Shown piece by piece: positions 10,243-45,776 of a stretch of DNA of 64,000 nt (the stretch's first letter is position 1; the number at the start of each line of letters is the position of its first letter). The stretch lies in assembly GCA_000004985.1 (NCBI GenBank), contig GG738860.1, one strand, 5' to 3'. Both the position numbers and the translations under genes were made by a program. Origin of the DNA: Naegleria gruberi. Lineage: Eukaryota. Under the pieces are notes generated by a model, which saw only the letters and a program-made list of their open reading frames with translations, was not told the DNA's origin and ran no database searches.

Positions 10243-10427
10243 TTTTAATTTTTTTTGAATGTTAATAAATTTATTATTGTGATCAAACCAATCAAAAGAT
10301 GTGTGAAAGATCACGACTGATTCAGATGTTAGTTGTGTGAAAAAAGTAAGCAAGTTAACTTCTTAAATCAATATTTTCAACAAGAAATGAGTAATTGTGA
10401 GATGAAATCAAGATTTGAGAAAACAAT

Positions 10428-12245: not shown

Positions 12246-14723
12246 ATGAGACGAAGTGCTGGTTGTTCAATGCAAGCAATGTGGAGGAAGGGTTTTCTTC
12301 TTCGGAATGGAGCACTTCTTGGAAAGGGATGTTCAGCACAATTTTTGTGTGGTGCTAATGGTAATAGTAATAATAATAACGGAGGAATGTATTTTGGATC
12401 AATAGTGGTTAGGAGAGCACATTCACCAATATTTAAATTGAATCAATTGAAAGAAAATGGAGAGGTGGATAATAGTGAAAAGATTGAAGAATTAAGTTCG
12501 GAAAAGTTACCTGATTTTGATTCATTGCCAAAACCTGTGCAGGAATATCTGATGAAAATTTCTGAAAATCCAGAACAACAAAGGGTATCTTTTGCCATGA
12601 GAGCAATGCATTCAATTTTGAAACAATATGAAAATAATTTATCAGTACTGACACCCTCATTCTACAATATTATTGCCTTCAATGTAGCAAGGAAACACAA
12701 GCACTTGAAATCAACAATCAAGTTGATTGAGTTGTTTGAAGATTTGGGAGTAATGTCACCATTACTTCACCGTTATGCAATAATATGCATGACTGATAGT
12801 TCGAATATTGGACAAACACCTCTCGGAGAAGTTTGGAAGTTTTTATTCAAGTACGATTTCACTCCTCATCCAGAGTCATTCAGAAAGTTCTTAATAGCCC
12901 TCATTGATCATGGAATGGAGGATAGTTCATTTGACAAAATTATTTTCGAAATGGATCCAGAAGCTTCACAAAAATATGGAAACAAGTTGCCAGTCCATGT
13001 AAAAATTAGATTCGTGCTAATTCACATGGTAAAATATGATATATCACTAACTTGGAAGCACTATAGACCTCTAGTTTTAGCACTTATTCGAGAAAATCAA
13101 AAGGATTTAATCACTACATTTTTTGAAACTCTCTATTCCAATAATAGGGTTTATGAAAATAGTGAATATTCACCATTTGAAGCTATTTCAGCAAGTTCTG
13201 TGCCTGGTTTTTCTCATTTAAATATTGAGAAAGATGGTAAACCTTATCATCAACCACTGTGGCCTTTGAGAAAAACAGGTAAAATTCAACTCATTTCACT
13301 TTTTGTCAAGGAATGCTCGGCAAGTAAGCTTTCAGATGTTGCGCAATATATTTTTAAAAAAACAACCAAGTACGTGAGTGTAGATACCAAGAGTATTAAT
13401 GCCATTTTGAATACAATGATTGAATCAAATGATATTCATGTATTTGACCTCTATAATGAGTTTAAGAGAGCCTATTCTCCTCTTATTAATATTGCAACCA
13501 TTACAATCATGCTCAAAGGATATACAAAGTTTATAGGACTCACCACCGATAGTTCTCTTCAAGTTTTACTTTACAAACAAGGATCAGAATTACAACAACA
13601 AGTACAAGACCTAAAAATTCATACAGACAAGTCCTACTTTAAGAATGTCATGTGGTTTTACCATGCTTGTAATTCATTTATTGATGTTGATATGAATAAC
13701 GTTGAAAATTTGTTACGATTTATGAGAAAATGTGGAATTAGAGCTGATGATGATTTTACAGTGTATATAATGATGGCACTTTCAAATAGCCCCGATGGTA
13801 TCAGCTTTTTCAAAAAGTATGCATCAAAGGCAAATCCTATCGATGTAAATATCTTGAATTGGGCCCTTAAAACGAGTCTCAACACTGAATGTTTTGAAGA
13901 TAGTGTAGACATTCTTTCATATCTTGGATCAGAACGAGATTCATACGTAGTGTGTTATAATGAAGAAACTTTCAAGATTTGCTTTAATATTTGGAAAAAG
14001 CTCATCTTGGTGGGTAAACCAGACGAGTTTCCAATCCACAAAGTTTTACAAGATATGGAAAAATGCTTCGCCAACAACACCCTTGAACCAACAGAGGACC
14101 TTCTCTCTTTTCTTGGGTCTGTTTTACTTAAATTTTACGAGAGTAAGAATATTGTTGGCGAAGATCTTTTGAAGAATACCATGACAGTCATTACAAAGTA
14201 TTATCCAAGTGAACTCATAGTAACCAAACCAAAATTGGTATCTTTAGCATTGAGTTCAGTTATTGGAAAGGGTTCTGTTGATATTAACCTTTTGGAGAAG
14301 ACTGTGACAATGTTGGAGACCTATGACGAAAATTTCTTTGATACCATTCACTATACACAATTATTGAGGATTATCAACAAGAGCAATACACCAAACAGAT
14401 GGAAACTAATGAGAATAATTTTACAAAAAATGACAAACACTAAAAAACACCCAAATCTGGTGACACTTCAAACAATAGTAGAGATAATTCTGAAAGAAAT
14501 GCCACACATGTACACACTACTTTTGCAAATATTGTCAATAATGAAAAATAGATTAATCTTTGACTCTGAGGCCACTGAAGTACATGTGAGAAGTAAGCAA
14601 CAATTGAGCTTGTGGTTGGAAGAAGTTACCGACTTGATATCTAAAGTGCGAGATCAAGAGACAGCTTTAGCTGAAAAGCAGATGGAAGCAAAATCTAATA
14701 GTTCAGAAGATTTACAAACCTAG
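12246..14723 (+). CDS. Hypothetical helical-repeat protein, possibly a mitochondrial PPR-like RNA-binding protein.
   Basis: 825-aa ORF with a real ATG. The N-terminus MRRSAGCSMQAMWRKGFLLRNG…RRAHS looks like a mitochondrial presequence. The rest is alpha-helical repeat-like. No firm motif. Confidence 0.4.
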   Translation: MRRSAGCSMQAMWRKGFLLRNGALLGKGCSAQFLCGANGNSNNNNGGMYFGSIVVRRAHSPIFKLNQLKENGEVDNSEKIEELSSEKLPDFDSLPKPVQEYLMKISENPEQQRVSFAMRAMHSILKQYENNLSVLTPSFYNIIAFNVARKHKHLKSTIKLIELFEDLGVMSPLLHRYAIICMTDSSNIGQTPLGEVWKFLFKYDFTPHPESFRKFLIALIDHGMEDSSFDKIIFEMDPEASQKYGNKLPVHVKIRFVLIHMVKYDISLTWKHYRPLVLALIRENQKDLITTFFETLYSNNRVYENSEYSPFEAISASSVPGFSHLNIEKDGKPYHQPLWPLRKTGKIQLISLFVKECSASKLSDVAQYIFKKTTKYVSVDTKSINAILNTMIESNDIHVFDLYNEFKRAYSPLINIATITIMLKGYTKFIGLTTDSSLQVLLYKQGSELQQQVQDLKIHTDKSYFKNVMWFYHACNSFIDVDMNNVENLLRFMRKCGIRADDDFTVYIMMALSNSPDGISFFKKYASKANPIDVNILNWALKTSLNTECFEDSVDILSYLGSERDSYVVCYNEETFKICFNIWKKLILVGKPDEFPIHKVLQDMEKCFANNTLEPTEDLLSFLGSVLLKFYESKNIVGEDLLKNTMTVITKYYPSELIVTKPKLVSLALSSVIGKGSVDINLLEKTVTMLETYDENFFDTIHYTQLLRIINKSNTPNRWKLMRIILQKMTNTKKHPNLVTLQTIVEIILKEMPHMYTLLLQILSIMKNRLIFDSEATEVHVRSKQQLSLWLEEVTDLISKVRDQETALAEKQMEAKSNSSEDLQT

Positions 14724-20812: not shown

Positions 20813-21327
20813 ATGATGTCAGCAACAGGAAATCATCATGAACAACAAAATAATGAACAACAGCAGTCGGAAAGAGCCAACCGTAAAAAGATTTTAGATG
20901 CTGTCTTGGAGTATTATTCAGAGGCTTTTTCTATAGAAAAAAGTAACGAGCAAATTAAAAACAAAATGGACCTTTGTTTACCGAAACATGTCTGTAAGCG
21001 TATTTCATTTAAATTATTGAAAACAGGAGCAAATATAAATTCCATTAGTGAGAAAGTTTTGAAAATTCCAAAAAAAGAAAAGAAAATTGAAAATCATGAA
21101 GAAGTGCTTCTTTCCCAAGCAGACTTGGATGATTTTAATAAGGAACCAACACAACATGACACTGAGGAGAAAAAAAAACAAATAATGGAGTATACTGAGC
21201 AGTATGTTCAGAAAAAGTCACAGAGTGTGCTTTCACAGATGGATAGTATTACTTTTCCCAAAAAGATTAGAGCAAGACTTGATCAAATTTCTAATATTAT
21301 TGCTAAAACCTGTATTCATCTAGAAGA
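20813..21327 (+). CDS. 5' part of a gene interrupted by the scaffold gap. Hypothetical basic/acidic protein.
   Basis: ATG at 20813 (MMSATGNHHEQQNNEQ…). The ORF is open until the N run begins at 21328. Confidence 0.4.
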
Positions 21328-22811
21328 NNNNNNNNNNNNNNNNNNNNNNNNNNNNNNNNNNNNNNNNNNNNNNNNNNNNNNNNNNNNNNNNNNNNNNNNN
21401 NNNNNNNNNNNNNNNNNNNNNNNNNNNNNNNNNNNNNNNNNNNNNNNNNNNNNNNNNNNNNNNNNNNNNNNNNNNNNNNNNNNNNNNNNNNNNNNNNNNN
21501 NNNNNNNNNNNNNNNNNNNNNNNNNNNNNNNNNNNNNNNNNNNNNNNNNNNNNNNNNNNNNNNNNNNNNNNNNNNNNNNNNNNNNNNNNNNNNNNNNNNN
21601 NNNNNNNNNNNNNNNNNNNNNNNNNNNNNNNNNNNNNNNNNNNNNNNNNNNNNNNNNNNNNNNNNNNNNNNNNNNNNNNNNNNNNNNNNNNNNNNNNNNN
21701 NNNNNNNNNNNNNNNNNNNNNNNNNNNNNNNNNNNNNNNNNNNNNNNNNNNNNNNNNNNNNNNNNNNNNNNNNNNNNNNNNNNNNNNNNNNNNNNNNNNN
21801 NNNNNNNNNNNNNNNNNNNNNNNNNNNNNNNNNNNNNNNNNNNNNNNNNNNNNNNNNNNNNNNNNNNNNNNNNNNNNNNNNNNNNNNNNNNNNNNNNNNN
21901 NNNNNNNNNNNNNNNNNNNNNNNNNNNNNNNNNNNNNNNNNNNNNNNNNNNNNNNNNNNNNNNNNNNNNNNNNNNNNNNNNNNNNNNNNNNNNNNNNNNN
22001 NNNNNNNNNNNNNNNNNNNNNNNNNNNNNNNNNNNNNNNNNNNNNNNNNNNNNNNNNNNNNNNNNNNNNNNNNNNNNNNNNNNNNNNNNNNNNNNNNNNN
22101 NNNNNNNNNNNNNNNNNNNNNNNNNNNNNNNNNNNNNNNNNNNNNNNNNNNNNNNNNNNNNNNNNNNNNNNNNNNNNNNNNNNNNNNNNNNNNNNNNNNN
22201 NNNNNNNNNNNNNNNNNNNNNNNNNNNNNNNNNNNNNNNNNNNNNNNNNNNNNNNNNNNNNNNNNNNNNNNNNNNNNNNNNNNNNNNNNNNNNNNNNNNN
22301 NNNNNNNNNNNNNNNNNNNNNNNNNNNNNNNNNNNNNNNNNNNNNNNNNNNNNNNNNNNNNNNNNNNNNNNNNNNNNNNNNNNNNNNNNNNNNNNNNNNN
22401 NNNNNNNNNNNNNNNNNNNNNNNNNNNNNNNNNNNNNNNNNNNNNNNNNNNNNNNNNNNNNNNNNNNNNNNNNNNNNNNNNNNNNNNNNNNNNNNNNNNN
22501 NNNNNNNNNNNNNNNNNNNNNNNNNNNNNNNNNNNNNNNNNNNNNNNNNNNNNNNNNNNNNNNNNNNNNNNNNNNNNNNNNNNNNNNNNNNNNNNNNNNN
22601 NNNNNNNNNNNNNNNNNNNNNNNNNNNNNNNNNNNNNNNNNNNNNNNNNNNNNNNNNNNNNNNNNNNNNNNNNNNNNNNNNNNNNNNNNNNNNNNNNNNN
22701 NNNNNNNNNNNNNNNNNNNNNNNNNNNNNNNNNNNNNNNNNNNNNNNNNNNNNNNNNNNNNNNNNNNNNNNNNNNNNNNNNNNNNNNNNNNNNNNNNNNN
22801 NNNNNNNNNNN
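21328..22811. other. Assembly gap (1,484 N).
   Basis: Uninterrupted run of n characters. Confidence 0.99.
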
Positions 22812-23584
22812 ATTTAATTAACAATATGGAAATTAAATATTTAGGATTAAAAAATGAAATTTTTATTTCAATTTTATCACCAACAATTGTGTGGTATGAT
22901 TACTTTGTTTCAAATTATTGTAAAATTTATCCATTAAAAGATTATAAATTAATTTTATTATTAATTATTAAATTATTTATTGATAATTTAAATGGATTAA
23001 AATTATTACATGAATTAAATATTTCACATATTGATTTTAACATTTTAAATTCTAACATAATATTAAATAATTGTTCTGATTTAATTAGTAAATATTTAAA
23101 AGAAAATAATTTACCAACATTTAATATGGTATTAATTGATTTTAATAGTTCAAAATTAGAAAGTCAATTATTATTTACAAATGAATACATTCCAAAAACA
23201 ACACATTATCCTCCTGATTATAAATTATATTATGATAATATAAAACCAAATATATCATTTACAAAAGCACATGATATTTATTCATTATCTATTGTAATGA
23301 TTCAATATATTAACATTTTGATTAATTGTTATGGGAATAATTGCTTTCAAATGAAATCAAATACTATTAGATATATAAATCAATCACATAGAAACAAAGA
23401 CGAACCATTCAATATTGATTTTAATATTTTAAATTTTAATATTTTAAATAGTTTTGAAAAGGAAATTTTTAATGAATTATTTGAAATGATAAGAGAAATG
23501 AATTTAAACCCTTGGAAAATTATTAATGAAAAAGATTATTGTTTACAACAATTAGAAAAATTACAAAATAATGTATTGAATTAG
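22812..23584 (+). CDS. 3' fragment encoding a degenerate protein-kinase-like (pseudokinase-like) C-terminal region. It is about 85% AT.
   Basis: LHELNISHIDFNILNSNIIL corresponds to HRDLKPxN with the catalytic loop degraded. VLIDFNSS corresponds to DFG changed to DFN. HDIYSLSIVMIQYI corresponds to DxWSxG. NPWKII corresponds to HPW. It ends with TAG at 23582-23584. Continuity with the 5' part across the gap cannot be shown. Confidence 0.45.
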
Positions 23585-34372: not shown

Positions 34373-35641
34373 TTATAAGGATGTTTCTGCAATAATTCTA
34401 TCGAGACTGTGGGCGAAAGAATTCAAGGTAAAGTTATCGATCACTCTCTGTCTTGAACGTGTTCCATAGTTGGCTCTTTCTTGAGCGCTCATGGAAAAGA
34501 ATTGAACAATGTTGAGGCCAAAGTTTTCGATAATTTCATCCTCGTTGAGATTATCCATAACGGCCAATAGACCTGTCGATTCATGAACAATACTTTCCTT
34601 TGGTCCTCCACTTCTCAATGCACAAACACATCTTCCACAATACATGGCCTCAACTGGAACAATACCAAAATGTTCTCCCTGTGGAGTGTAGGCCACTACA
34701 GTGCAATATTTCAACAAGACATATCTCTCAATTTCATTAAATGATGGAACATAAATTGCATTCTCTTGGACATTGTACTTGGCTACCAATTGTTTCAATT
34801 CATCCAAAACTTGAATATTTTCAGGAACTCTTGGATCATAACCTCCAGCAAGAATGAGTAAGGCGTCTGGGAATCTAGGCTTGACATACTTGGCAAATGA
34901 GTGAACCAGCAAGGCAATATTCTTCTTCTTTTCAAATCTATTGATGGATACAACACTGAATTCACTGTCCATTATTCTCTTATAGAATGAACACTTTTCC
35001 AATTCTTCCTCAGATGGTTGAACATCGTAGGATGAAACATTGATTGGTGGATATAAAATTTCAACTTGCTTATTAGAGAGCTTTTTAAATGATTCATAGA
35101 AAATTTGTTTGGTAAATCCAGAATTTACACTAATAGAATGAGCCATTCCAGTTGTAATTTCCTCAAAATAATCGAATGGAATTCTATATAATTTCTTCAA
35201 TAATGACAAGTTACTGTCCCATCTCACCAACAATTTATCAGGAAAATGACAGTAAAATACAATTTTAGCCTTTGGAAATAATAATTTCAAGAGTGGAATA
35301 TGATAACTAATTTGATCAACAATAATCACATCATAATTTTCATGAGAATGATTCAAATACATTCTAATAGTACAATAAAACATTCTTAAAATTGCAAAGA
35401 AAATATGAAATAAACCAAATATTGTTCTCGGAAGAAAATCTCCATATGAAATTACATCCAAAGTTCCATCATTGGTTTCTGAGAAGGAATGTTTAGGATC
35501 GTGATGAGAGGTAAATATCGTAACCTTGTGTCCAATAACCTTTTTTAATCCAACAGCAGCATCCACAATCAATCGTTCAGCTCCTCCGATACCCAAGTCC
35601 GGATGAGTAAAGGCAATATTAAGTGATTTGTTCTTCTTCAT
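34373..35641 (-). CDS. ALG2: Alpha-1,3/1,6-mannosyltransferase ALG2 (GT4 glycosyltransferase).
   Basis: MKKNKSLNIAFTHPDLGIGGAERLIVDAAVGL matches the ALG2 N-terminal signature. GT4 C-terminal fold is present. The real ATG is at 35639-35641; the track start at 35683 is upstream and non-ATG. Confidence 0.75.
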   Translation of the reverse strand: MKKNKSLNIAFTHPDLGIGGAERLIVDAAVGLKKVIGHKVTIFTSHHDPKHSFSETNDGTLDVISYGDFLPRTIFGLFHIFFAILRMFYCTIRMYLNHSHENYDVIIVDQISYHIPLLKLLFPKAKIVFYCHFPDKLLVRWDSNLSLLKKLYRIPFDYFEEITTGMAHSISVNSGFTKQIFYESFKKLSNKQVEILYPPINVSSYDVQPSEEELEKCSFYKRIMDSEFSVVSINRFEKKKNIALLVHSFAKYVKPRFPDALLILAGGYDPRVPENIQVLDELKQLVAKYNVQENAIYVPSFNEIERYVLLKYCTVVAYTPQGEHFGIVPVEAMYCGRCVCALRSGGPKESIVHESTGLLAVMDNLNEDEIIENFGLNIVQFFSMSAQERANYGTRSRQRVIDNFTLNSFAHSLDRIIAETSL

Positions 35642-35656
35642 TTTTTTTAAATTTGA

Positions 35657-38440
35657 GCTCAAACGAAAAGTCAACCCAACCAATCAGACTTCCAAATTCA
35701 CAGAAGAATCAACTCACTCCCAATACATAGACTCATCAAGGAAATCAATGTACTCACATTCGAATATTCAAATAATAATAAGCAACAAACACTAGATGAA
35801 CTGAATAAGAAGAAAGATGAACTGAAATACAAACAGAAGGAATTTTTTAAGAAAGAGAGAGATAGATGGCTACATATGATTAACAATACAAGTATTGGAT
35901 TTCTATATAGATTTGATGCAGATCTGAACACCAAGAATATCAATTGGAAAAATCTACCAGACAGCGTAAACAAAGATAGCACTCTCCAATTCTTCACACA
36001 GAAATTCAAGAAAGAATATGAAGAAATCAAAATCAAACTCCCAACATCAACAGTCAAAGAAGGTCCACAAGAGATCACAATTAACAAAGATGATATTCTA
36101 AGCACACTCAAGAGACTCAAATCTAAATCTACAGGCACAGACTTTATTACAAATGACTTACTCAAGGAAATGACAGAGACACAAGCAACACAATTAGCAA
36201 TAGAATTTAATAAGATGATTAGTGAAACAAAGGATATACCAATAATAATGAAAGAAGGTTGGATCAAATTAATCCCAAAGAAAGACTCTATTGTAACACA
36301 CAAAGACATTCGTCCTATCACAATAATGAGTACACTATACAGACTACTATTTAACATCATAGCAAGGAAAATAGGTAAATGGGCAAAAGATAACATCAAT
36401 ATTAGACAACAAGCATTCACATCTAACAGAGAAGTTAACAACCATATTCTAGTAATCCAAGCATTAAGAGTCAAATACAAGAAAACAAATGCATTTGTAA
36501 TCACCAACTTGGACATAGAAAATGCATATGACGGTGTAGAACATTGTGTCCTTAGATTAGCTATGAAACATTGTAAATTCCCACTAATGTATAACACAAT
36601 CACCCAAATTATAATAGATTACCAAATCGAGAATTGGAAAATACCTGGCACACCATCATTTAAAATTGAAGAAATAGGAACTCTTAATTTTGCTGATGAC
36701 TGCTCATTAGTAACACAACCCAACAAGAAACACAATACCAAACTCAAACAACTGAACAAATGGATAGGGAATCTCAAAATGAAAATCAATGCTTCTAAAT
36801 CAATAACTTCTGTCACACCGGAAAGAATAGCCCTTAAAGACTTCACAGTTAAGCTTGACGATACGTTAATACCAAGACAAACCAATCAAAGAACATTAGG
36901 AAACTACATCACAGAAGACCATCTCTTCACAAAAGAAATTGACAAAAGAGAAGCTAGAGTAACACAAATACTAAAAATACTTCCAATCCATTTGATAGAA
37001 CCAGAAAATCTCAAAAGAATCATAATGGGCAAGACAATTAGTAGTTTTATCCATCTAGCAAGAGGAAATTCAATTTCCAATCCTCGCCTACAAACAATTG
37101 ACTCAACAATTAGGGGTAACCTAAAAAGATCACTGAAGATCGATGCAAAGGTAAAACCATCCACAATGTATGCACAATTCGAAAGAAAAGGACTAGAAAT
37201 TCCAAACCTCGAATACATAGCCAACTCAATCCTTTGCAATAACTTAATCAACAAATTCCACTCAAGTAACCCACTTGTCAGAGAAGCAGTACAGTACGGA
37301 ATTAATAACTGTAACACGAACAAAACAAAACTACACAACATATTTGAAAAATTCCACTACATCCTAAAACAACAACACAAACTTACCACAACAATATGTA
37401 ACACCAATCATCAACTTCTGGAAAAGGAAAAAGATGAACAATACTCCTACTCAGAATTCACAATATGGACTGATGGATCCAAATCAGAAAACAAAGTAGG
37501 ATTCAGTATAATCATTCAGAACAACGAATTTACAAAAGGATACAAATACAAGCTCCACTCATACCACTCAAACAACATGGCTGAATTATCAGCAATTACA
37601 ACAGCACTACACATCATACCACCAAACAGCAATGCAAAGGTACTCACTGACAGTGAAATAGCAGTCAAAATAATTAACAACACAAATTACAAAGGTCAAT
37701 TTAAGCAAATCAAAGATGAAATTACCAACCTCATCAGCACTAAAAAACTTCAAGCATCCATCGAATGGACAAAAGCTCATACAGGAATAACAGATGGAAA
37801 TAACTACGCTGATAAGAAAGCCAAACAAGCCTCAAGAATAGGACATCGAATTGCACCCCAACATCTACTAACTCAAGGGCAATTAATTATCACCAATTCG
37901 AAAAAAGTTTGGAAAAGTAGAATCAAAGGAGTACTTAGTGAAAAGCTCTACAATCAAGGAACATCCGAACTCATCAACAGAACAAATCTCAATTACCTCA
38001 AAGAACATACCACCCCAGCTCACAAATACTCAATCTGGAGGCTCATGATAAATGGACACTTAAGAAGCCTCATAGTAGACAACCCACAATGCCCAACATG
38101 TAACAAAAACCTTGACACAGAACACCTCTTCATAGCATGCCCAGAAATGAATTCAGCTAGAAACTGGATGATTGAAGAAATCAAAAAAAATACCAATCTC
38201 GAACCAGTACTAAGCACAGAGAGGACAGAAATATTAACACCAAACTCATTCCAACTAAATATCTTTGATATTCTGACGGAACCTATTCAAGGTATTATCA
38301 AAGAACAATGGCCCAAGATACAAGGAGGCCTCTCACTTTTTGGAGGAAGAGTACAAAAACAATACAACAAAATCTTAAAAATTCAATAAGACGTTCCAAA
38401 TGGACGAACCCGTCGGGTTCATTCGATTAATAAACGTTTA
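35657..38440 (+). mobile_element. 5'-truncated non-LTR (LINE-like) retrotransposon carrying an RT-RNaseH-CCHC ORF and a 3' hairpin.
   Basis: The reading frame is open from 35657 to the stop at 38387-38389. RT motif FADDCSLV. RNase H motifs TDGSKSENKVGFSII…AELSAITTAL…HTGI. Zinc knuckle CPTCNKNLDTEHLFIACP. The 3' UTR hairpin gaacccgtcgggttc is followed by aataaacg. There is no endonuclease domain and no ORF1. Boundaries are approximate. Confidence 0.7.
35876..38389 (+). CDS. Reverse transcriptase / RNase H / zinc-knuckle polyprotein of the truncated non-LTR element.
   Basis: Track ORF of 837 aa. Motifs as listed for the mobile element. Confidence 0.7.
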   Translation: MINNTSIGFLYRFDADLNTKNINWKNLPDSVNKDSTLQFFTQKFKKEYEEIKIKLPTSTVKEGPQEITINKDDILSTLKRLKSKSTGTDFITNDLLKEMTETQATQLAIEFNKMISETKDIPIIMKEGWIKLIPKKDSIVTHKDIRPITIMSTLYRLLFNIIARKIGKWAKDNINIRQQAFTSNREVNNHILVIQALRVKYKKTNAFVITNLDIENAYDGVEHCVLRLAMKHCKFPLMYNTITQIIIDYQIENWKIPGTPSFKIEEIGTLNFADDCSLVTQPNKKHNTKLKQLNKWIGNLKMKINASKSITSVTPERIALKDFTVKLDDTLIPRQTNQRTLGNYITEDHLFTKEIDKREARVTQILKILPIHLIEPENLKRIIMGKTISSFIHLARGNSISNPRLQTIDSTIRGNLKRSLKIDAKVKPSTMYAQFERKGLEIPNLEYIANSILCNNLINKFHSSNPLVREAVQYGINNCNTNKTKLHNIFEKFHYILKQQHKLTTTICNTNHQLLEKEKDEQYSYSEFTIWTDGSKSENKVGFSIIIQNNEFTKGYKYKLHSYHSNNMAELSAITTALHIIPPNSNAKVLTDSEIAVKIINNTNYKGQFKQIKDEITNLISTKKLQASIEWTKAHTGITDGNNYADKKAKQASRIGHRIAPQHLLTQGQLIITNSKKVWKSRIKGVLSEKLYNQGTSELINRTNLNYLKEHTTPAHKYSIWRLMINGHLRSLIVDNPQCPTCNKNLDTEHLFIACPEMNSARNWMIEEIKKNTNLEPVLSTERTEILTPNSFQLNIFDILTEPIQGIIKEQWPKIQGGLSLFGGRVQKQYNKILKIQ

Positions 38441-38728
38441 AATTTTTTTTAAATTTGTTTTTAGAATTTAAATTGTTGATAAAATTGTGAATTGAATTGT
38501 AAAATTTGAGAGGAAGGAATTTCGTGTTTTTTAAAATACGTGTTTTCAAATGATCGTTTTGAAAATGAGTTTTAAATGATGTGAAGTGAACTTGAGATTT
38601 TTTGTAAATCTTATTAAGGTTGTTGAGAAATTGCCTTATTCGTTATTAATTTAGTTTTGTTATGTTCAATTTTAAAGATAAAAGTAAAAAGTACCAAATA
38701 TTCAAGATTTTTATTTCAAAATTAAAAT

Positions 38729-39516: not shown

Positions 39517-39589
39517 GGGGATGTAGCTCACATGGTAGAGCGCTTCTTTAGCATGGAAGAGGTACGGGGATCGATACCCCGCATCTCCA
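39517..39589 (+). tRNA. tRNA-Ala (anticodon AGC), 73 nt.
   Basis: GGGGATG-TA-GCTC-ACATGGT-AGAGC-G-CTTCT-TTAGCAT-GGAAG-AGGTA-CGGGG-ATCGATA-CCCCG-CATCTCC-A. G3·U70 in the acceptor stem. Confidence 0.85.
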
Positions 39590-39594
39590 CTATC

Positions 39595-39599: not shown

Positions 39600-40754
39600 A
39601 TTTAGTAAATGAATTCATTGTGATTGCAGATAGGTGCAATAAGGCTTAAACATATGGTGCCATACTTTTTCCAAGGAGAATACATGAAATGACTTTATGT
39701 AATGGAGTAAAACAAGTTAGAAAAATTAGAATATTGAGCTAATAACTTTGGAAATTAGTTTTCACTTATTTTGAATTGTAATATTATTGTTTTTCATTTT
39801 GTAATTTTGGACGGGAAGCCTGCCAGGAATATGGCGACAATCCCGCTACAGTCTTTGACTGTATGAACAGTGAAGGCAACTAATCTATTGATTGTTGGTT
39901 CAGTAAGTTATTGTTTAGAAAAGCTTGCTACGTGACCCTCTGTTTATCATCTTTGAATTTTATCTATTTAGAAAGAGAAACTTGTGGTTGATCAATAAAC
40001 GATCAAATTTCGAATTTGAGTCTTCAAATAATACTATTATTATTCAAAAGAAGACAAACACTACACTGAAGGAACGGTTGCTTGGCTAGTCATAATCTTC
40101 ATAATGTTATGATCAATTACCACATAAGGAAGGTGTTGTGATTTTTCTATTAATTGAAAAAAGAAGGAACATTCGTTAACAATTTTCTATGGATTTCTTG
40201 ATTAATAAAAAGAAAGTGTTGATAATGTTCTATTAATTGATAAAAAGTTAAGGTACCAATCTGCATGTTCACAAATCCCCCATTCACTAACCATGGCTGG
40301 TAAGGAATGCAGCAATCATCTATGAACGAGGAAACCTACAACGAAGCATGTTTCCAGTTCGATATCATGCTCAAGATATGTGACTACAGAGTCTTCATCT
40401 TGGTTAACCTCAAAGGTCAGATTGACTCAAAAAAGTCGAGTTTATGTATTCCTACAGAAAAGATCCTGTAGAAGTACAGTCAATGGTTTTAGCAATCTTG
40501 CATCCTCAATGATATTATATCGGTTTTGAAAGTGTGGATTGTTGTCAGGAAAAGTTATGGTAAAAAAATTCAATGAGAGATTCAAGAAAATATTTGAATG
40601 GACAGTATTCCAGTGAATTAGCACCTATTATTCTGATAACAAAGGAATCTCAACTTACTTCATTAACAATTCAGACTCGTTATTTCTGAAATAATAATAT
40701 TGAAACAATATGTGTTTTCATGAACAAAAGGAGAAATTTTAATACATTAGTATA

Positions 40755-40827
40755 GCTGGCGTAGCTCAGTCGGTAGAGCGTTGGTCTAATAAGCCATTGG
40801 TCGCCGGTTCGATCCCGTCCGTCAGCA
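40755..40827 (+). tRNA. tRNA-Ile (anticodon AAU), 73 nt, with one mismatch each in the anticodon and T stems.
   Basis: GCTGGCG-TA-GCTC-AGTCGGT-AGAGC-G-TTGGT-CTAATAA-GCCAT-TGGTC-GCCGG-TTCGATC-CCGTC-CGTCAGC-A. The D arm and anticodon loop match eukaryotic tRNA-Ile(AAU). Confidence 0.7.
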
Positions 40828-40865
40828 TCTCTTTTGGCTTTTAAAAAAGGGAAGACATTCCACCC

Positions 40866-40876
40866 CATTCGAAACC
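40866..40876 (+). promoter_or_regulatory. Extra B-box-like element (CATTCGAAACC) about 40 bp downstream of tRNA-Ile.
   Basis: Resembles the Pol III B-box consensus GGTTCGAANCC. Dictyostelid tRNA genes commonly carry a downstream ex-B box. Confidence 0.4.
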
Positions 40877-40887
40877 CAAGTAAGATT

Positions 40888-40906
40888 ATTTTTTTTGGAA
40901 ACATTG
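40888..40906. repeat. Target-site duplication (5' copy), ATTTTTTTTGGAAACATTG.
   Basis: Exact 19-nt match with 45758..45776. Confidence 0.8.
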
Positions 40907-40938
40907 GGGGGGCTTCAAAAAAATATTTTAAATCAGAA

Positions 40939-41032
40939 ATGAATAACAACAAGAGACGAATTAATCGTCAAAAATTCACCAACCAGAATCTAAACAACAG
41001 GAACAACACTGGTAATAACAACAACAATATTA

Positions 41033-41077
<45 letters not shown>

Positions 41078-42252
41078 TAATTGTGAATAAACAATCAAAT
41101 AATAATAATACTACTAATAATAATAATAATAATAATAGTAATAATAGTACATCTAATAATGGTCCAAAATTAAATAGATACCAAACTAAACACAGAGTCA
41201 TCATTTGTAATTACGACCAAAATGAATCAATCAACAAATTGGCAAATTATTTAAAAATAAGTCCTAATAATGTATTCGGAATGAAGGTAGATAATAATTT
41301 GAAATTAGCTATATTATACTTTAGAAACAAACAACTAGCAGAAAATTGTATTAACAAAAATTCTAATCTTGCTATATGCCATCAAACTACTGTAACTGAA
41401 TTTAAATATAATATTAAATTAGAAATTAATGAAGAAAATATTAAAAAAGTTTGGACAGAATTTAATAATTCAGAAAACCATGACAATATGGGAGATGAAG
41501 CAGATAAACCAAATACTAAAATTATATCTATGAATATGGTAACATCTACTAAATATTGGTCAATCCACACCAACACCCTTGTTAGCGAAACATTAATGAA
41601 AAAATTGGAATTAACTAGAGACCTAGATAAATCAGTGTCTTTCGTTATTAATTTAGGAGATAATATTAATATTAGACATGATGAATTGGAAAAAACTATT
41701 GAAGAACAATGGAAAGTTAAACCAAGAGTAACTTGCTCCAATGATAAAAAAATGTTCGCTGTTGTCCCAATTAATCAATTAGCTACAGCCTCAATCACTA
41801 GAGAGATTTATTTTGAAAATCATATCCTCAAAAATCTATCCTATAGCTATTACAAAAAGAAAAGTTTTAAAATTAAATTTAAAAAAATGGAAGAAGAATT
41901 AAAAAATCGTACATTGGAAAATGAAGTTCTTACTGAAAGTTTGGACTATTTGGAAGATAAATTTGAAACTCTCAAAACGAACATCAAAGAGGATTTTACA
42001 TCTAGAATTACTTACCTAGAACAAGAAACAATTACCAAATCTATGCTGAAAGAAGAATTTGAATTAAATAATTCACAAATTTCAGTTCAATTTGATAAAC
42101 ATAAAATTGAGATGAAAGAATCTGTAACTAATCAACTAAAAGAAAATCATGATTCTATCATCAATCATATGAATATAACTATGAAACAAAATTTTGCGGG
42201 TTTATTTGAAGAATTTAGAAACCTAGGGGTACTTCCAACACCCAAACAATGA
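40939..42252 (+). CDS. Retrotransposon ORF1 protein with a poly-Asn N-terminus, an RRM-like core and C-terminal coiled coil.
   Basis: The first ATG is at 40939; the track start at 40834 is a TTG inside flanking DNA. Sequence: MNNNKRRINRQK…(N)n…RVIICNYDQNESINKLANYL…. Confidence 0.65.
41035..41076 (+). repeat. (AAT)14 microsatellite encoding poly-Asn inside ORF1.
   Basis: Direct read of aat repeats. Confidence 0.9.
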
Positions 42253-42773
42253 GTCTAAATAATCATATTCAATTAGCTACATGTAATCTATCGTGTTTTA
42301 ATCTCTCAAAACAAACATGTTTGCTTAACAATATAGATAGACACAATCTGCACGTTATTGCAGTACAAGAGACTCACTGGGACATATCAAATAACGAACA
42401 ACTCAGATTAGCAACAAATTTATTTAACAATTGTTACGTATTTAATAGTTTCAAACAACCAAGTGACCATTTTGGAGGAATATTAACTCTAATTAGAAAA
42501 GACACTCAAATTAACCTCCTTTCATATGAAGAATTAATCAAAGGCCGATTAACAAATGTTAAAGTAGAACTTAACAACAAAACTATTAATTTTGTTAATT
42601 GGTATGGAAGAATTAAAATGGACAATATATATTTTGAAATTTTTAATATACTAACAGAACTAATTCAATATTGTATGGTACACAATGAATATTTATATAT
42701 ATTAGGTGATACAAATATGACAACAATACCAAGCACCAAATTTAGCAGACTTTCTCCAAAAGATAAAAACTAA
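42249..42773 (+). CDS. Retrotransposon ORF2, N-terminal part (apurinic/apyrimidinic-type endonuclease), terminated by a frameshift.
   Basis: MSLNNHIQLATCNLSCFN…HVIAVQETHW… The stop TAA at 42771-42773 lies right after an A5 run (gataaaaact). Confidence 0.65.
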   Translation: MSLNNHIQLATCNLSCFNLSKQTCLLNNIDRHNLHVIAVQETHWDISNNEQLRLATNLFNNCYVFNSFKQPSDHFGGILTLIRKDTQINLLSYEELIKGRLTNVKVELNNKTINFVNWYGRIKMDNIYFEIFNILTELIQYCMVHNEYLYILGDTNMTTIPSTKFSRLSPKDKN

Positions 42774-45706
42774 TACAATGGATAAGCGAATATAGGTTGT
42801 ATGATTTTAATTCAACAAACATTCAACCATCTTTCACACAATTCAATGGATCATCAGTATATGCTAAATCACGACCAGATCATATTATTGCTAATATTAA
42901 CAATCACATATCTAGTAAAGATATTGACACCTTTACTCAACATAACATAGTATGTGCTACTGTTGACCTACAATATGAACCAAAAACTTTCTCTCTACCA
43001 TTTACAAAAAATATATATAATTGGGAAAAAATTAAAGATAATATTGAAAATATTAAATTAAAAATTTTACAATCCAATTACAACACGGTAGAAGATATTC
43101 AAAATCATTTAATTACAATTTTACAAGAATTTACCTATCAAAAAAGAAAATCAAATAATGTAACAAATTGTAAAGAATATCAAGAATTATTCAAATTAAA
43201 AAACGATATTAACAAATATTATTTAAAAAAAAAGAAAAATTTAAATAAGAAAAGTATTGAATTATTTAATAATAATAACAACCCTTCCAGAGATGAAATC
43301 AAAGTTAAATTAGTAGAACTTGATGATAAAATGGATTCAGTTATTAAAGTTAAATTAAAGGAAAGAAAACAAGCATTCATTAATGAAGTTAATGATTTAA
43401 CAACGAAAAAACCATTTAGTTACCCATTTAGAAAAGAATCTAAACACTCATCTATCTTCAATGTAACTAACTCGGTCAATTTTGAAAAAGAAATAATAGA
43501 CCACTTTTCTAAAATGTTCAATACTGAACTCCCCAACTCTGACATTGAATTCACACATATAATTAATGATATCAACAATAATAATCAAATCAACCTATTC
43601 ACATCAGAATCATTATATGAAACAATCTCAAATACGAAAAATTCAATGGCAGGGTGGGATAATATACCCATAAAATTCCTGAAATTGTTAGATGAAGAAT
43701 GTATAGAAAAATTTGTAATTCCATTTAACAATATTCTTGAAGGAAAAACCCAAATACCACAATCATTCAAACAAGGTCTACTTCTTCCCCTTCCAAAAGT
43801 TAATAATCCTTCAAAATTGGGAAACTTTAGACCAATAGTGGTATTACCAACTCTATATAGAATTCTCTCTACTTTCATTAATTCTCAAATAATGAACATA
43901 ATTAACACTAATAATAATTTATTAAATGAATGTCAAAGAGGATTCTTGAAGAATAGTTCAACAACAGATAACCTATCAGTAGTGAAAACAGTATTGAATT
44001 CATACTTGAACAATAACAAATCAATATTCATTTCTACATTGGATATTAAAAATGCTTATGGTTCTGTAATTCACTCTAAACTGATAGATATTTTAGAAGC
44101 AAAAGGATTTGATAGTCATATATGTAACCTTGTGAAAGACATGATCACCAATCATAAAATTAAGATTCTTGCTAATAATTCAGTGTCAGCAGAATTTAAT
44201 TCAACACTTGGTGTTCCTCAAGGTGACCCTTCAAGCCCTATTCTCTTCAACCTATATTTCGATCTAATAACGCAAGTTATTAAAGAATTCAAAGGAATCT
44301 CATTTGGAGATATTAACGTGGTAATCTTATTATATGCTGATGATATAATTATTCTCAGTGAAACAGCATATGAAATGAATGCAATCCTAAAAAGATTAAC
44401 AGAAATAGGAAATCAAATTGGATTACATTTCGCAGAAGAAAAGTGTAAAGTAGTAGGTATCACACCTGCAGGTAACAGGTCAAAAGCAAAAATCTGGATG
44501 AATAATATTAATATTAATAACAAAAAACATGACTTGGAGTACCTTGGAGCCATTCTTAATGGTAGTAATTTCAACTGGAATACACCATCCAGTGTATTAG
44601 ATAAAATTACATTCAGAACTCAATCTTTCAAACCAAAAATGTTAAAACTAAACACTGCAAGAGTGGTGTTTCAATCTAAAGTAATATCAATCCCCAGATA
44701 CTTATGTAGTGTCGGTTGTTTCCCAAAATCTAAATTGGAGAAATTGGATAAATATATTTCAGGACAAATCAAAATGAAAATGGGATGGGATTGTAGACTG
44801 TCTAAAGCAGTAATGTATGGAGAAAAATCTATTGGGGGTCTAGGACTAATATCACCCTCAAATATTTACTATATAGAACAATGTGCTGCTTTATACAGAT
44901 TTGTTAACTCATCATCGTCTATTACTCGTTATGTGATGAGAAAAGCATTACTAGATGTGGAACAAGCATTAGACAGCAACAACTATTTAGAAGAATTTAT
45001 TTTAAATTTAATTAACAACAACTGGAATTGGATCGAACCAAGAAATCTAGATTCTTCAGAATGGATATTAATCAAGCAAAACAAAACTTCACCAGACATC
45101 AGGCAAGAATTACTAGCTCATCTTAGAAGTAAGATGACACCTAGCTTGATGGGCAATTTAGATAAAAATAACGAATGGCACAGATTGACATTAAATTTCT
45201 GGTCTAATCCAACACTTTCACTATACCAACAAAAGATATGCTTTGCAAACTTGCACAAAGCAATTAGAATCAATAATATTGATGACAAAGAACCAATTAT
45301 TTGTGAATCCTGTAATACCAGTGCAACTTGGGATCACATATTTTGGGAATGCTCTCGATGTATACACGAACGTACTGAATGTCAACGGTTATATGATGAA
45401 ATCTCACTCACCTATAACCTTAATAAGATTGAAATCAACACAACATCAAGCTCCCCATCAACTCTTACTTTCTCTCCAAATGGAATCATCTTAAAATCAA
45501 ATTACAAAATATGGAAAAAGAAAAAGATCGTTAAATCAGAAGTTCTAAATCAAATTTATAGAATTTACGTTCAATATGTTGAAAATTGTTACAAAAATTC
45601 TGATTGGAACTCAAAACTAGGTCCAAAAAGGAACTACTCTATCTCAACAAAACAAAAAAACCACCCTACATCATGGCAAATCCACCAACAACTAAGCCAA
45701 CGATAA
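42767..45706 (+). CDS. Retrotransposon ORF2 continuation (APE C-terminus, reverse transcriptase, Cys-rich domain) in the -1 frame.
   Basis: The frame is open from 42767, overlapping the end of the APE ORF. Sequence: …RPDHIIANINN… (APE SDH-like motif), then RT blocks including YADD, then the zinc finger. The track lists it from 42797 (TTG). Confidence 0.65.
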   Translation, partial: KLIQWISEYRLYDFNSTNIQPSFTQFNGSSVYAKSRPDHIIANINNHISSKDIDTFTQHNIVCATVDLQYEPKTFSLPFTKNIYNWEKIKDNIENIKLKILQSNYNTVEDIQNHLITILQEFTYQKRKSNNVTNCKEYQELFKLKNDINKYYLKKKKNLNKKSIELFNNNNNPSRDEIKVKLVELDDKMDSVIKVKLKERKQAFINEVNDLTTKKPFSYPFRKESKHSSIFNVTNSVNFEKEIIDHFSKMFNTELPNSDIEFTHIINDINNNNQINLFTSESLYETISNTKNSMAGWDNIPIKFLKLLDEECIEKFVIPFNNILEGKTQIPQSFKQGLLLPLPKVNNPSKLGNFRPIVVLPTLYRILSTFINSQIMNIINTNNNLLNECQRGFLKNSSTTDNLSVVKTVLNSYLNNNKSIFISTLDIKNAYGSVIHSKLIDILEAKGFDSHICNLVKDMITNHKIKILANNSVSAEFNSTLGVPQGDPSSPILFNLYFDLITQVIKEFKGISFGDINVVILLYADDIIILSETAYEMNAILKRLTEIGNQIGLHFAEEKCKVVGITPAGNRSKAKIWMNNININNKKHDLEYLGAILNGSNFNWNTPSSVLDKITFRTQSFKPKMLKLNTARVVFQSKVISIPRYLCSVGCFPKSKLEKLDKYISGQIKMKMGWDCRLSKAVMYGEKSIGGLGLISPSNIYYIEQCAALYRFVNSSSSITRYVMRKALLDVEQALDSNNYLEEFILNLINNNWNWIEPRNLDSSEWILIKQNKTSPDIRQELLAHLRSKMTPSLMGNLDKNNEWHRLTLNFWSNPTLSLYQQKICFANLHKAIRINNIDDKEPIICESCNTSATWDHIFWECSRCIHERTECQRLYDEISLTYNLNKIEINTTSSSPSTLTFSPNGIILKSNYKIWKKKKIVKSEVLNQIYRIYVQYVENCYKNSDWNSKLGPKRNYSISTKQKNHPTSWQIHQQLSQR

Positions 45707-45757
45707 CTTCATAGTCAGAACCGTACCGGTTCTAACTACCAAATAAACAAACCCTAC

Positions 45758-45776
45758 ATTTTTTTTGGAAACATTG
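45758..45776. repeat. Target-site duplication (3' copy), ATTTTTTTTGGAAACATTG.
   Basis: Exact 19-nt match with 40888..40906. Confidence 0.8.

What the first reader, a model, noticed from the sequence alone, without database searches (positions are those of the whole stretch)
40755..45776. Full-length tRNA-targeted non-LTR retrotransposon with a perfect 19-bp target-site duplication, 79 bp downstream of tRNA-Ile and just past an ex-B box
- The element is bracketed by exact direct repeats ATTTTTTTTGGAAACATTG at 40888-40906 and 45758-45776.
- It begins with untemplated-looking GGGGGG and ends without a poly(A) but with a 3' hairpin (gaaccgtaccggttc).
- It carries ORF1 (poly-Asn, RRM-like, coiled coil), an APE endonuclease, an RT with YADD and a CCHC tail.
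- The ORF1 stop and ORF2 start overlap as ATGA, which suggests termination-reinitiation.
- APE and RT are separated by a 1-nt frameshift located at an A5 homopolymer.
- The insertion point sits about 30 bp beyond a B-box-like CATTCGAAACC downstream of the tRNA. This is the geometry described for Dictyostelium TRE3 elements.
- The element therefore looks like a young, nearly intact copy and could define a lineage-specific TRE family.
Basis: partly seen in the sequence, partly recalled or inferred. Interest (0 to 1): 0.7.

Follow-up and report, generated by a model that had tools for sequence, protein, structure and literature searches.

The report
Naegleria LINE targeting A-run/ATG sites
This is a young, almost intact copy of a LINE-type retrotransposon in the amoeba Naegleria gruberi; its relatives insert at a short A/T-run motif (often a host gene's start codon) rather than at tRNA genes, so the neighbouring tRNA-Ile is most likely incidental.

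Summary
A 4,851-bp non-LTR retrotransposon (40907-45757) lies between exact 19-bp duplications, 79 bp downstream of tRNA-Ile. It has ORF1, an ATGA ORF1/ORF2 overlap, an APE-RT(YADD)-CCHC ORF2, no poly(A) and a 3' hairpin.

The tRNA-targeting (TRE3) reading does not hold.
- The host is Naegleria gruberi, not a dictyostelid.
- The only close relatives are in Naegleria and Willaertia.
- In 15 junction sets from at least five genomes, every copy ends next to A+T5-9 with a 17-21-bp duplication.
- Eleven of 13 known 5' flanks read CAT+T-run. This is the A-rich start-codon context on the other strand, and often a called host start codon.
- Only one other copy lies within 100 bp of a tRNA, on the other side and in the other orientation.
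- The "ex-B box" is at chance level.

The frameshift is a 1-nt deletion (A6 to A5) inside the endonuclease-coding region. It is not programmed, because intact relatives read through.

A second, unrelated LINE in the window (35656-38441) uses the same target type, exactly at a host ATG.

Verdict: a new member of a known kind, with a notable target preference. Clade placement and other N. gruberi copies could not be checked.

The parts
40755..40827 (+). tRNA-Ile(AAT). A neighbour of the element, not part of it.
   Evidence: ARAGORN; Rfam tRNA model, 59.9 bits.
40866..40876 (+). CATTCGAAACC, the proposed ex-B box. Judged a chance match.
   Evidence: It has 2 mismatches to GGTTCGANNCC. TTCGAANCC occurs 3 times against 1.08 expected, and the other tRNAs in the window lack it.
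40888..40906 (+). 5' copy of the 19-bp target-site duplication ATTTTTTTTGGAAACATTG. It begins with the family's target motif, A+T8.
40907..45757 (+). Full-length non-LTR retrotransposon body, 4,851 bp.
   Evidence: Bounded by the TSD. It has the same ends as the full-length relatives, starting GGG..TTC.AAAAAAT and ending ..AATAAA..CCCTAC.
40907..40938 (+). 32-nt 5' UTR starting GGGGGGCTTCAAAAAAAT.
   Evidence: The closest lineage, L024, starts GGGGGACTTCAAAAAAAT.
40939..42252 (+). ORF1, 437 aa. It has an N-terminal poly-Asn tract, two predicted RRM-like alpha/beta modules and a C-terminal long-helix (coiled-coil) region.
   Evidence: There is no Pfam hit. Homologues are P0230 (66% identity) and P0231. 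The AlphaFold model has low confidence (pLDDT 55), but its Foldseek top hits are all tandem-RRM proteins such as SFPQ/NONO.
42249..42773 (+). ORF2, first part: the N-terminal two-thirds of the APE endonuclease (QETH and GDTN motifs). It ends at a premature TAA caused by the frameshift. Its ATG overlaps the ORF1 stop as ATGA.
42765..42769 (+). A5 run, the site of a 1-nt deletion relative to intact relatives, which have A6.
   Evidence: L024 reads GACAAAAAACTAATACAATGG (KDKKLIQW). The window reads GATAAAAACTAATACAATGG.
42767..45706 (+). ORF2, remainder, in the -1 frame: the end of APE (SRPDH), the RT domain and the CCHC and C-terminal region.
   Evidence: It is 63% identical to P0001, an intact 1,157-aa ORF2.
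43802..44554 (+). Reverse-transcriptase domain, with YADD at 44333-44344.
   Evidence: Pfam RVT_1, 127 bits, residues 346-596 of the 979-aa translation.
45302..45352 (+). CX2CX7HX4C zinc knuckle (CESCNTSATWDHIFWEC).
   Evidence: Read from the sequence and the translation.
45712..45738 (+). 3' UTR stem-loop with core AGAACCG-UAC-CGGUUCU.
   Evidence: Folds at -11.7 kcal/mol, z=-3.55. Equivalent hairpins with different stem sequences and UAC/UGC triloops occur in L001 and in both Willaertia copies.
45742..45747 (+). AATAAA, 10 nt before the element's 3' end. Presumed polyadenylation or 3'-end signal.
   Evidence: AATAAA lies 9-13 nt before the end in all subfamilies. Its function is inferred.
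45758..45776 (+). 3' copy of the 19-bp target-site duplication.

Best explanation
This is a recently inserted copy of a LINE (APE-type non-LTR retrotransposon) family restricted, as far as could be seen, to heterolobosean amoebae (Naegleria and Willaertia). The copy is inactivated by a single nucleotide deletion.

Shown:
- The element encodes ORF1 and an APE-RT-CCHC ORF2.
- It carries a conserved 3' end: a stem-loop, then AATAAA, then a C-rich tail, with no poly(A).
- It is flanked by a 19-bp duplication.
- Every relative examined is joined at its 3' end to A followed by 5-9 T and has a 17-21-bp duplication.

Inferred mechanism:
- The RNA is translated into ORF1p and, probably by termination-reinitiation at AUGA, ORF2p.
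- The ORF2p endonuclease nicks the opposite strand at 5'-A(5-9)T^(G/A).
- The RT recognises the 3' UTR stem-loop and primes cDNA synthesis from that nick, without using a poly(A) tail.
- A second nick 17-21 bp away creates the duplication.

A-run+ATG is the usual start-codon context in these genomes (19 of 44 called genes in the loci examined). As a result many copies sit head-to-head exactly on a host start codon. In this window the endonuclease used an off-consensus A8T^A site that happens to lie 60 bp past tRNA-Ile, in a small-RNA gene cluster (tRNA-Ala, U3 snoRNA, tRNA-Ile). The tRNA is a neighbour, not the target.
For: - Host: ORF 2324-4756 is exactly N. gruberi XP_002678754.1, and the element's C-terminal 310 aa is N. 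gruberi XP_002678762.1.
- Domains.
- Family range: the best hits are an unnamed assembly (63% identity), W. magna, N. fowleri, N. lovaniensis and a few metagenomic fragments. Everything else in 1.8 billion representatives is at most about 30% identical.
- Junctions: 15 junction sets all show the element end followed by A+T5-9, and 10 exact TSDs of 17-21 bp.
- Target base: C precedes the A in 11 of 13 known 5' flanks, against an 18% base rate.
- Start codons: five of the eight N. fowleri and N. lovaniensis copies that have gene calls, plus L024, lie exactly on called start codons.
- 3' UTR: the last 57 nt are 56/57 identical between this copy and a relative whose ORF2 is only 63% identical. Hairpins with different stems occur in Willaertia.
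- Frameshift: it equals a change from A6 to A5 when compared with the intact L024 and P0001.
- Second element: an unrelated LINE in the same window has the same target type and the same 3' architecture.
Against: - No other copy from N. gruberi itself could be examined, because its contigs are not in the look-up index. A gruberi-specific shift to tRNA targeting is therefore not formally excluded.
- Counting the window copy, proximity to tRNAs is nominally enriched: 2 of 12 within 100 bp (P=0.017) and 5 of 12 within 1 kb (P=0.028).
- The window target (TAT8) lacks the C (G on the nicked strand) seen in most relatives.
- Endonuclease specificity, RNA ends and 3' UTR recognition are inferred from insertion anatomy, not measured.
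- The stem-loop is weak or absent in the N. fowleri / N. lovaniensis subfamily and in L005.
Confidence: 0.8

Rival explanations
1. One reading: a tRNA gene-targeted retroelement of the TRE3 type. It would be tethered by Pol III factors (TFIIIC at a B or ex-B box) and would integrate about 40-150 bp downstream of tRNA genes.
For: - This copy is 79 bp downstream of tRNA-Ile in the same orientation.
- One N. lovaniensis copy (L017) has its insertion site 82 bp downstream of tRNA-Phe.
- Five of 12 loci have a tRNA within about 1 kb.
Against: - The host is Naegleria. TRE-like elements were not found outside dictyostelids (PMC5006619).
- Of the other 11 long-flank insertions, 10 are not within 100 bp of a tRNA, and five have no tRNA found in the 2-10 kb of flank read on either side.
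- Among tRNA-proximal copies, distances (79, 82, 212, 300, 574 and about 1,000 bp), sides and orientations all vary.
- The closest-lineage full-length copy (L024) sits on a protein-gene start codon.
- The B-box motif is at chance level.
- There is no oligo(A) tail.
- Without the ascertained window copy the enrichment disappears: 1 of 11 and 4 of 11.
Confidence: 0.06
2. Active homing to gene starts. The family would be directed to translation or transcription start regions of host genes by a host factor or by chromatin, for example nucleosome-free promoters. It would then be more than a simple endonuclease sequence preference, and the element's 5' end might act with the displaced host gene as a divergent promoter pair.
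For: - Insertions lie exactly on called start codons, head-to-head, in L003, L016-L019 and L024. The window's second LINE lies on the ALG2-like gene's ATG.
- The host genes include apparently essential ones such as eIF2A and PNO1.
- Two unrelated LINE families share the behaviour.
Against: - 37% of all A5TG sites in the same loci are called gene starts. Five of 8 insertions at starts is therefore not significantly more than the motif alone predicts (P=0.08-0.13).
- Purifying selection against insertions within coding sequence would add to the bias.
- The window copy, L002, L004, L022 and L023 are not at called starts.
Confidence: 0.12
3. Non-specific insertion into AT-rich intergenic DNA, with the flanking repeat and the tRNA proximity both coincidental.
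For: The genome is AT-rich. AT6+ runs occur about once per 1.1 kb in the window.
Against: - Fifteen of 15 junctions begin with A+T5-9, exactly at the element's end.
- C precedes the A in 11 of 13 flanks against an 18% base rate.
- There are 10 exact 17-21-bp TSDs.
- The 19-mer pair was never seen in shuffles.
Confidence: 0.02

Closest known systems
Dictyostelium TRE3 elements (tRNA gene-targeted non-LTR retrotransposons; L1 clade according to PMC5911963)
   Same: - Two-ORF APE-RT-zinc-knuckle LINE in a compact protist genome.
- This single copy lies within TRE3's 40-150 bp window downstream of a tRNA, in the same orientation.
- ORF2 is in the -1 frame relative to ORF1.
   Different: - Different eukaryotic supergroup (Heterolobosea rather than Amoebozoa).
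- No oligo(A) tail.
- No credible ex-B box.
- Relatives are not tRNA-associated.
- The target is a sequence motif, A(n)T^R.
- ORF2 has its own AUG overlapping the ORF1 stop.
- The sequence relationship to TRE could not be tested.
L1-clade LINEs (for example human L1)
   Same: - ORF1 plus ORF2 (APE-RT-CCHC).
- ORF1 with RRM-like and coiled-coil parts.
- The endonuclease prefers a homopolymer A/T target.
- TSDs of about 15-20 bp, 5' truncated copies and extra 5' G residues.
   Different: - No poly(A) tail.
- The primer strand ends in an A-run plus T instead of a T-run, so it cannot pair with a poly(A) tail.
- The 3' UTR stem-loop is conserved.
- In ORF1 the coiled coil is C-terminal to the RRM-like modules.
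- The RT core scores higher against R2 proteins (135 bits) than against human L1 ORF2p (87 bits).
'Stringent' LINEs that recognise their own 3' UTR structure (R2; L2-clade elements such as eel UnaL2; from general knowledge)
   Same: - A conserved 3' stem-loop close to the end.
- No dependence on poly(A).
- A precise 3' junction.
- A nearly invariant 57-nt 3' end between elements whose ORF2 is only 63% identical.
   Different: - An APE endonuclease rather than the restriction-like endonuclease of R2.
- No 3' microsatellite tail.
- The target is a short, abundant motif rather than a unique site.
Sequence-specific APE LINEs (R1, TRAS/SART, and Tx1-clade elements that target small-RNA genes; from general knowledge)
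   Same: The endonuclease defines a recognisable target sequence and an exact junction.
   Different: Here the target is a short, abundant motif that coincides with the host's start-codon context. It is not a multicopy RNA gene or a telomeric repeat.

Membership tests
Dictyostelium TRE3 | Host is a dictyostelid; TRE-like elements have been reported only there. | tested here: not met
   The window is Naegleria gruberi (exact protein matches). Spaller et al. 2016 found no TRE-like elements outside dictyostelids.
Dictyostelium TRE3 | [quoted passage not shown] | tested here: not met
   This copy does (79 bp). Of 11 other long-flank insertions only L017 is within 100 bp, and it has the opposite orientation. 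For five, no tRNA was found in the 2-10 kb of flank read. Other copies from N. gruberi itself were not available.
Dictyostelium TRE3 | Targeting relative to a B box or external B box. | tested here: not met
   CATTCGAAACC has 2 mismatches to the consensus. Its 9-mer core is at chance frequency, and the other three tRNAs in the window lack such a motif.
Dictyostelium TRE3 | The 3' end carries an oligo(A) tail. | tested here: not met
   The element ends ...AAACCCTAC directly against the TSD. The same is true of all relatives.
Dictyostelium TRE3 | The RT groups with TRE3/TRE5 within the L1 clade. | not testable with these tools
   No TRE sequences could be obtained; the supplementary alignments are images. 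Indirect evidence: the RT core profile scores R2 above human L1.
APE-type non-LTR retrotransposon (LINE) | Reverse transcriptase of the non-LTR type with a YADD motif. | tested here: met
   RVT_1 at 127 bits. The best solved relatives are R2 and L1 ORF2 proteins.
APE-type non-LTR retrotransposon (LINE) | An N-terminal apurinic/apyrimidinic-like endonuclease. | tested here: met
   Exo_endo_phos scores 20.6 bits here, below the cut-off, but 33 bits in the N. fowleri homologue, above the cut-off. The QETH, GDTN and SRPDH motifs are present. There is no sequence match to solved endonucleases.
APE-type non-LTR retrotransposon (LINE) | Footprint of target-primed reverse transcription: variable target-site duplications, a fixed 3' end and 5' truncations. 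| tested here: met
   Ten exact TSDs of 17-21 bp, invariant 3' ends, and a 5'-truncated copy in L001; the 5' end of L020 was not found, so truncation there is possible but not shown.
L1 clade | Poly(A) tail, with a T-rich primer that pairs with it. | tested here: not met
   There is no A-tail, and the primer strand would end in A(n)T.
L1 clade | ORF1p with a coiled coil and an RRM. | tested here: inconclusive
   There is no Pfam or PDB sequence hit. A low-confidence model (pLDDT 55) shows two beta-alpha-beta-beta-alpha-beta modules followed by long C-terminal helices, and its Foldseek hits are tandem-RRM proteins at low TM-score.
L1 clade | RT phylogenetic placement among curated clade references. 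| not testable with these tools
   No labelled reference set (Repbase or RTclass1) was available. Only HMM scores against solved structures could be compared.

The most novel reading that the evidence does not exclude
Naegleria and Willaertia may harbour an undescribed lineage of LINEs that home, head-to-head, onto the A-rich start-codon context of host genes, nicking within A(n)AT^G. At least one unrelated RNase-H-bearing LINE shares the habit. The insertion leaves the host ATG with only about 18 nt of native leader abutting the element's 5' end. This would imply either a divergent promoter in the element's first nucleotides or very short core promoters in these amoebae. It would be a genome-colonisation strategy different from the tRNA, rDNA and telomere safe havens known for other compact genomes.
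Probability: 0.3. Interest if true: 0.65.

Novelty: new member of a known kind. Interest (0 to 1): 0.4.

Why it matters
The attractive claim was a TRE3-like tRNA-targeting family outside its known range. That claim does not survive, which prevents a wrong annotation and a wrong inference of convergent Pol III targeting.

What remains is still useful. Naegleria genomes are reported to carry only about 0.1-0.3% transposable elements, and their LINEs are essentially undescribed in the searchable literature. This family has three notable properties:
- It shows recent activity: four N. lovaniensis loci encode the identical protein.
- It has a precise and simple target motif.
- It has a compact 3' recognition module.

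Its frequent landing on host start codons raises testable questions about how promoters work in these amoebae and how such insertions are tolerated.

Tried and rejected
- **Other copies in the window.** A self-comparison found none, only an unrelated LINE.
- **Exact look-up of N. gruberi gene models.** P0027 and P0033 were queried to reach other N. gruberi loci, but neither is on record in the contig index. The key test, other copies in the same genome, could therefore not be run.
- **Metagenome scan with the conserved 3' UTR 22-mer.** It gave 0 hits.
- **Metagenome scan with RT peptide patterns.** The full family alignment was too gappy to use. The RT-core alignment returned only LINEs 21-30% identical, which were not used.
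- **A tRNA-like stretch just 3' of the L005 copy.** It contains a GGTTCAAATCC box, but neither ARAGORN nor Rfam supports it even at E<=1.
- **Obtaining TRE3/TRE5 RT sequences.** The supplement of Spaller et al. holds its alignments as images, not text.
- **Endonuclease domain against solved structures.** There was no meaningful sequence hit.
- **ORF1 against Pfam and PDB by sequence.** Nothing was found.
- **Programmed -1 frameshifting at U AAA AAC.** Rejected, because the intact relatives carry A6 and read straight through.
- **Start-codon homing as more than a motif preference.** It was not significant against the motif null.


Full report
**1. The observation**

ARAGORN and Rfam both place tRNA-Ile(AAT) at 40755-40827 on the + strand. 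The 19-mer ATTTTTTTTGGAAACATTG occurs exactly twice in the 64-kb window, at 40888-40906 and 45758-45776, even when 2 mismatches are allowed. None of 100 dinucleotide-preserving shuffles gave two hits.

Between the two copies lie 4,851 bp (40907-45757). They start GGGGGGCTTCAAAAAAAT and end ...AATAAACAAACCCTAC, with no A-tail. The features are:
- ORF1 runs 40939-42252 (437 aa).
- ORF2 starts at 42249, so its ATG overlaps the ORF1 TGA as ATGA.
- ORF2's first frame stops at 42771-42773. The -1 frame is open from 42767 to 45706. The switch must therefore fall in the A5 run 42765-42769.
- Pfam gives RVT_1 at 127 bits and a sub-threshold Exo_endo_phos match at 20.6 bits.
- YADD and a CX2CX7HX4C knuckle are present.
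- The 3' UTR folds into a stem-loop at 45712-45738 (-11.7 kcal/mol, z=-3.55).

The description is accurate, with three corrections.
- The frameshift lies inside the endonuclease domain, between GDTN and SRPDH, not between APE and RT.
- The 'ex-B box' is a 2-mismatch match. Its 9-mer core occurs 3 times against 1.08 expected (14 of 100 shuffles reach 3). The other three tRNAs in the window have no such motif downstream.
- The leading G-run is shared with relatives.

**2. Whose genome**

An 811-aa ORF at 2324-4756 is exactly Naegleria gruberi XP_002678754.1. The last 310 residues of the element's ORF2 are exactly N. gruberi XP_002678762.1, which sits in a 90%-identity cluster of one member. The window is therefore from a heterolobosean, far from Dictyostelium.

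**3. Relatives**

The repaired ORF2 was searched against 5.8 billion proteins. Its 979-aa C-terminal frame was scored against 1.84 billion cluster representatives. Close relatives appeared only in:
- an unnamed NCBI assembly, GCA_050043615.1 (63% identity, intact 1,157-aa ORF2);
- Willaertia magna, N. fowleri and N. lovaniensis;
- one more divergent N. gruberi protein;
- a handful of environmental fragments.

Everything else is generic LINE RT at about 30% identity or less.

Against solved structures, the RT core profile scores R2 proteins at 135 bits and human L1 ORF2p at 87 bits. I could not obtain TRE sequences or a labelled clade reference set. Clade placement is therefore open.

**4. What the family targets**

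I fetched the DNA around relatives and read the junctions (table). Fifteen junction sets from at least five genomes give a uniform picture.
- Full-length copies are 4.65-4.85 kb long.
- They start with G2-6 followed by (N)TTC/CTC-(G/T/A)-A6-7-T.
- They end with AATAAA, then 9-13 nt of C-rich sequence, with no poly(A).
- The 3' end is joined directly to A+T5-9.
- Ten copies have exact 17-21-bp TSDs that begin with that A.

In 11 of 13 known 5' flanks the base before the A is C. The base rate for C before AT5 in the same loci is 18%. On the opposite strand the target therefore reads 5'-A(5-9)T^G, that is, an A-run followed by ATG.

That is the normal start-codon context in these genomes: 19 of 44 called genes in the loci have A5ATG. 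Accordingly, the CAT is exactly the called start codon of a divergently oriented host gene at several loci:
- N. fowleri L003 (synaptobrevin);
- four N. lovaniensis loci that encode the identical element protein (WD40, OST3-like, PNO1 and eIF2A genes);
- the closest-lineage copy, L024.

However, 37% of all A5TG sites in those loci are called starts. Five of 8 insertions at starts is not significantly above what the motif alone predicts (P=0.08-0.13). A sequence preference of the endonuclease, plus selection against insertions in coding sequence, is enough to explain the pattern.

**5. tRNA association**

Among 12 insertions with at least 2 kb of flank, the distance to the nearest tRNA is:

| Locus | Distance to nearest tRNA |
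|---|---|
| Window | 79 bp |
| L017 | 82 bp (element's 3' end proximal, opposite orientation) |
| L023 | 212 bp (element upstream of the tRNA) |
| L006 | 574 bp |
| L002 | about 1 kb |
| L019 | 4.4 kb |
| Remaining six | none found in the 2-10 kb read |

The short contig L005 has a tRNA 300 bp away.

I reconstructed the empty sites and took all AT5 motif sites as the null. Under it, 1.7% of sites lie within 100 bp of a tRNA and 15.5% within about 1 kb. With the window copy included, the observed 2 of 12 and 5 of 12 are nominally enriched (P=0.017 and P=0.028). But the window copy was selected because of its tRNA. Without it, 1 of 11 and 4 of 11 are unremarkable.

There is no common distance, side or orientation. 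The closest-lineage full-length copy has a protein gene's ATG where this copy has the tRNA. TRE3's other hallmarks, as listed in PMC5911963, are absent: there is no oligo(A) tail and no B-box dependence.

The window's target (gatt|ATTTTTTTT) is an off-consensus A8T^A site. It lies in a small-RNA gene cluster comprising tRNA-Ala, U3 snoRNA (40255-40483, minus strand) and tRNA-Ile.

**6. The frameshift**

The intact closest-lineage ORF2 (L024) reads GAC AAA AAA CTA ATA CAA TGG (KDKKLIQW). The window reads GAT AAA AAC TAA TAC AAT GG. Adding one A restores ...SPKDKKLIQWISEYRLYDF..., which is colinear with L024 and with P0001.

It is therefore a 1-nt deletion (A6 to A5) or a base-calling error, not programmed recoding. 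Together with the perfect TSD, this marks a young copy that is just inactivated, or possibly intact.

**7. Other parts**

- *ORF overlap.* The ATGA overlap recurs in L024 and L005. W. magna instead has a 26-nt spacer. Coupled termination-reinitiation is plausible but not universal.
- *3' UTR.* The last 57 nt are 56/57 identical between this copy and L001, although the two ORF2s are only 63% identical. Both Willaertia copies have 3' hairpins in the same place, with different stem sequences and UAC/UGC triloops. The N. fowleri / N. lovaniensis subfamily and L005 do not fold convincingly.
- *ORF1.* It has no Pfam or PDB sequence match. A low-confidence AlphaFold model (pLDDT 55) shows two beta-alpha-beta-beta-alpha-beta modules followed by about 125 residues of long helix. 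Its Foldseek hits are all tandem-RRM proteins, notably the RRM-RRM-coiled-coil DBHS family, but at low TM-scores. 'RRM-like plus coiled coil' is therefore weakly supported.

**8. Mechanism**

Shown: the anatomy, the junction motif, the TSD lengths and the conserved 3' module.

Inferred:
- The endonuclease nicks 5'-A(5-9)T^(G/A).
- The RT binds the 3' stem-loop and the C-rich tail, and starts cDNA synthesis at the exact RNA end without pairing to a poly(A) tail. The primer ends in A(n)T and cannot pair with A.
- A second nick 17-21 bp away makes the TSD.
- AATAAA 9-13 nt from the end probably sets the RNA 3' end. The T-run that every new copy acquires downstream could serve as a U-rich downstream element. 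This last point is speculation.

**9. A second element**

At 35656-38441 lies a 5'-truncated LINE of another family (RVT_1 plus RNase_H; 26% identical to the main element's RT).
- It is flanked by an exact 16-bp TSD, ATTTTTTTTAAATTTG.
- It ends with a hairpin followed by AATAAACGTTTA.
- Its TSD starts at the AT of the CAT that is the start codon of the minus-strand ALG2-like gene.

Two unrelated Naegleria LINE families thus share both the target type and the 3' architecture.

**10. Verdict**

The element is real and well described, but it is not a TRE and not demonstrably tRNA-targeted. It is a new member of the APE-LINE kind, from a heterolobosean-restricted family with an A-run/ATG target preference.

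Three things remain unverified: other copies in N. gruberi itself, clade placement, and whether Repbase or Dfam already lists the family. The searchable literature does not describe it. It reports only that Naegleria genomes carry about 0.1-0.3% transposable elements.

Noticed in passing
window 35640-38457: A second, unrelated LINE (RVT_1 plus RNase_H) lies at 35656-38441 and is 5'-truncated. It has an exact 16-bp TSD, ATTTTTTTTAAATTTG. It ends with a hairpin followed by AATAAACGTTTA and has no poly(A). It is inserted exactly at the start codon (CAT, 35639-35641) of the minus-strand ALG2-like glycosyltransferase gene.
   Followed up: partly
window 40255-40483 (-): A U3 snoRNA gene (Rfam RF00012, 79 bits) sits between tRNA-Ala (39517-39590) and tRNA-Ile. 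The element therefore lies at the edge of a small-RNA gene cluster.
   Followed up: no
L016, L017, L018, L019 (N. lovaniensis), each about 5734-10522: Four loci encode the identical 1,448-aa gene-model protein (ORF1 and ORF2 fused by annotation). Each copy is 4,750 bp long with a perfect 18-19-bp TSD, and each sits head-to-head on a called host start codon (WD40, OST3-like, PNO1 and eIF2A genes). This points to very recent activity. How these host genes are still expressed is unexplained.
   Followed up: partly
L023 1-5627 (-), N. fowleri: The 5' flank of one N. fowleri copy is another long LINE gene model (Exo_endo_phos_2, RVT_1, RNase_H; 1,872 aa). It may be of the same kind as the window's second LINE.
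   Followed up: no
L003 5460-6503 and 8797-9840 (the same locus as L021 2664-3707 and 6001-7044): There are two called genes of 347 aa with no Pfam hit, 3.3 kb apart. The second is the element's ORF1. The first may be a solo ORF1-like copy.
   Followed up: no
L002 14516-14560 (W. magna): A degenerate partial duplicate of the 3' part of tRNA-Leu lies about 75 bp from the intact tRNA-Leu gene (14635-14714).
   Followed up: no
L001 about 137-155 versus 4239-4260: The two flanks of this 5'-truncated copy do not form a clean TSD (CATTTTTTTGATCATT versus ATTTTTTATTGTTG). This could reflect a short-read assembly that joins different copies, or a target deletion at insertion.
   Followed up: no
window 21000-23000: A stretch with extremely low G+C (3-10%) interrupts otherwise 32-37% G+C sequence.
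   Followed up: no
window 45029-45039 (-): A perfect-but-one B-box-like GGTTCGATCCA lies on the minus strand inside ORF2 (coding W-I-E-P). L001 conserves it at the nucleotide level. It is probably just coding conservation.
   Followed up: no
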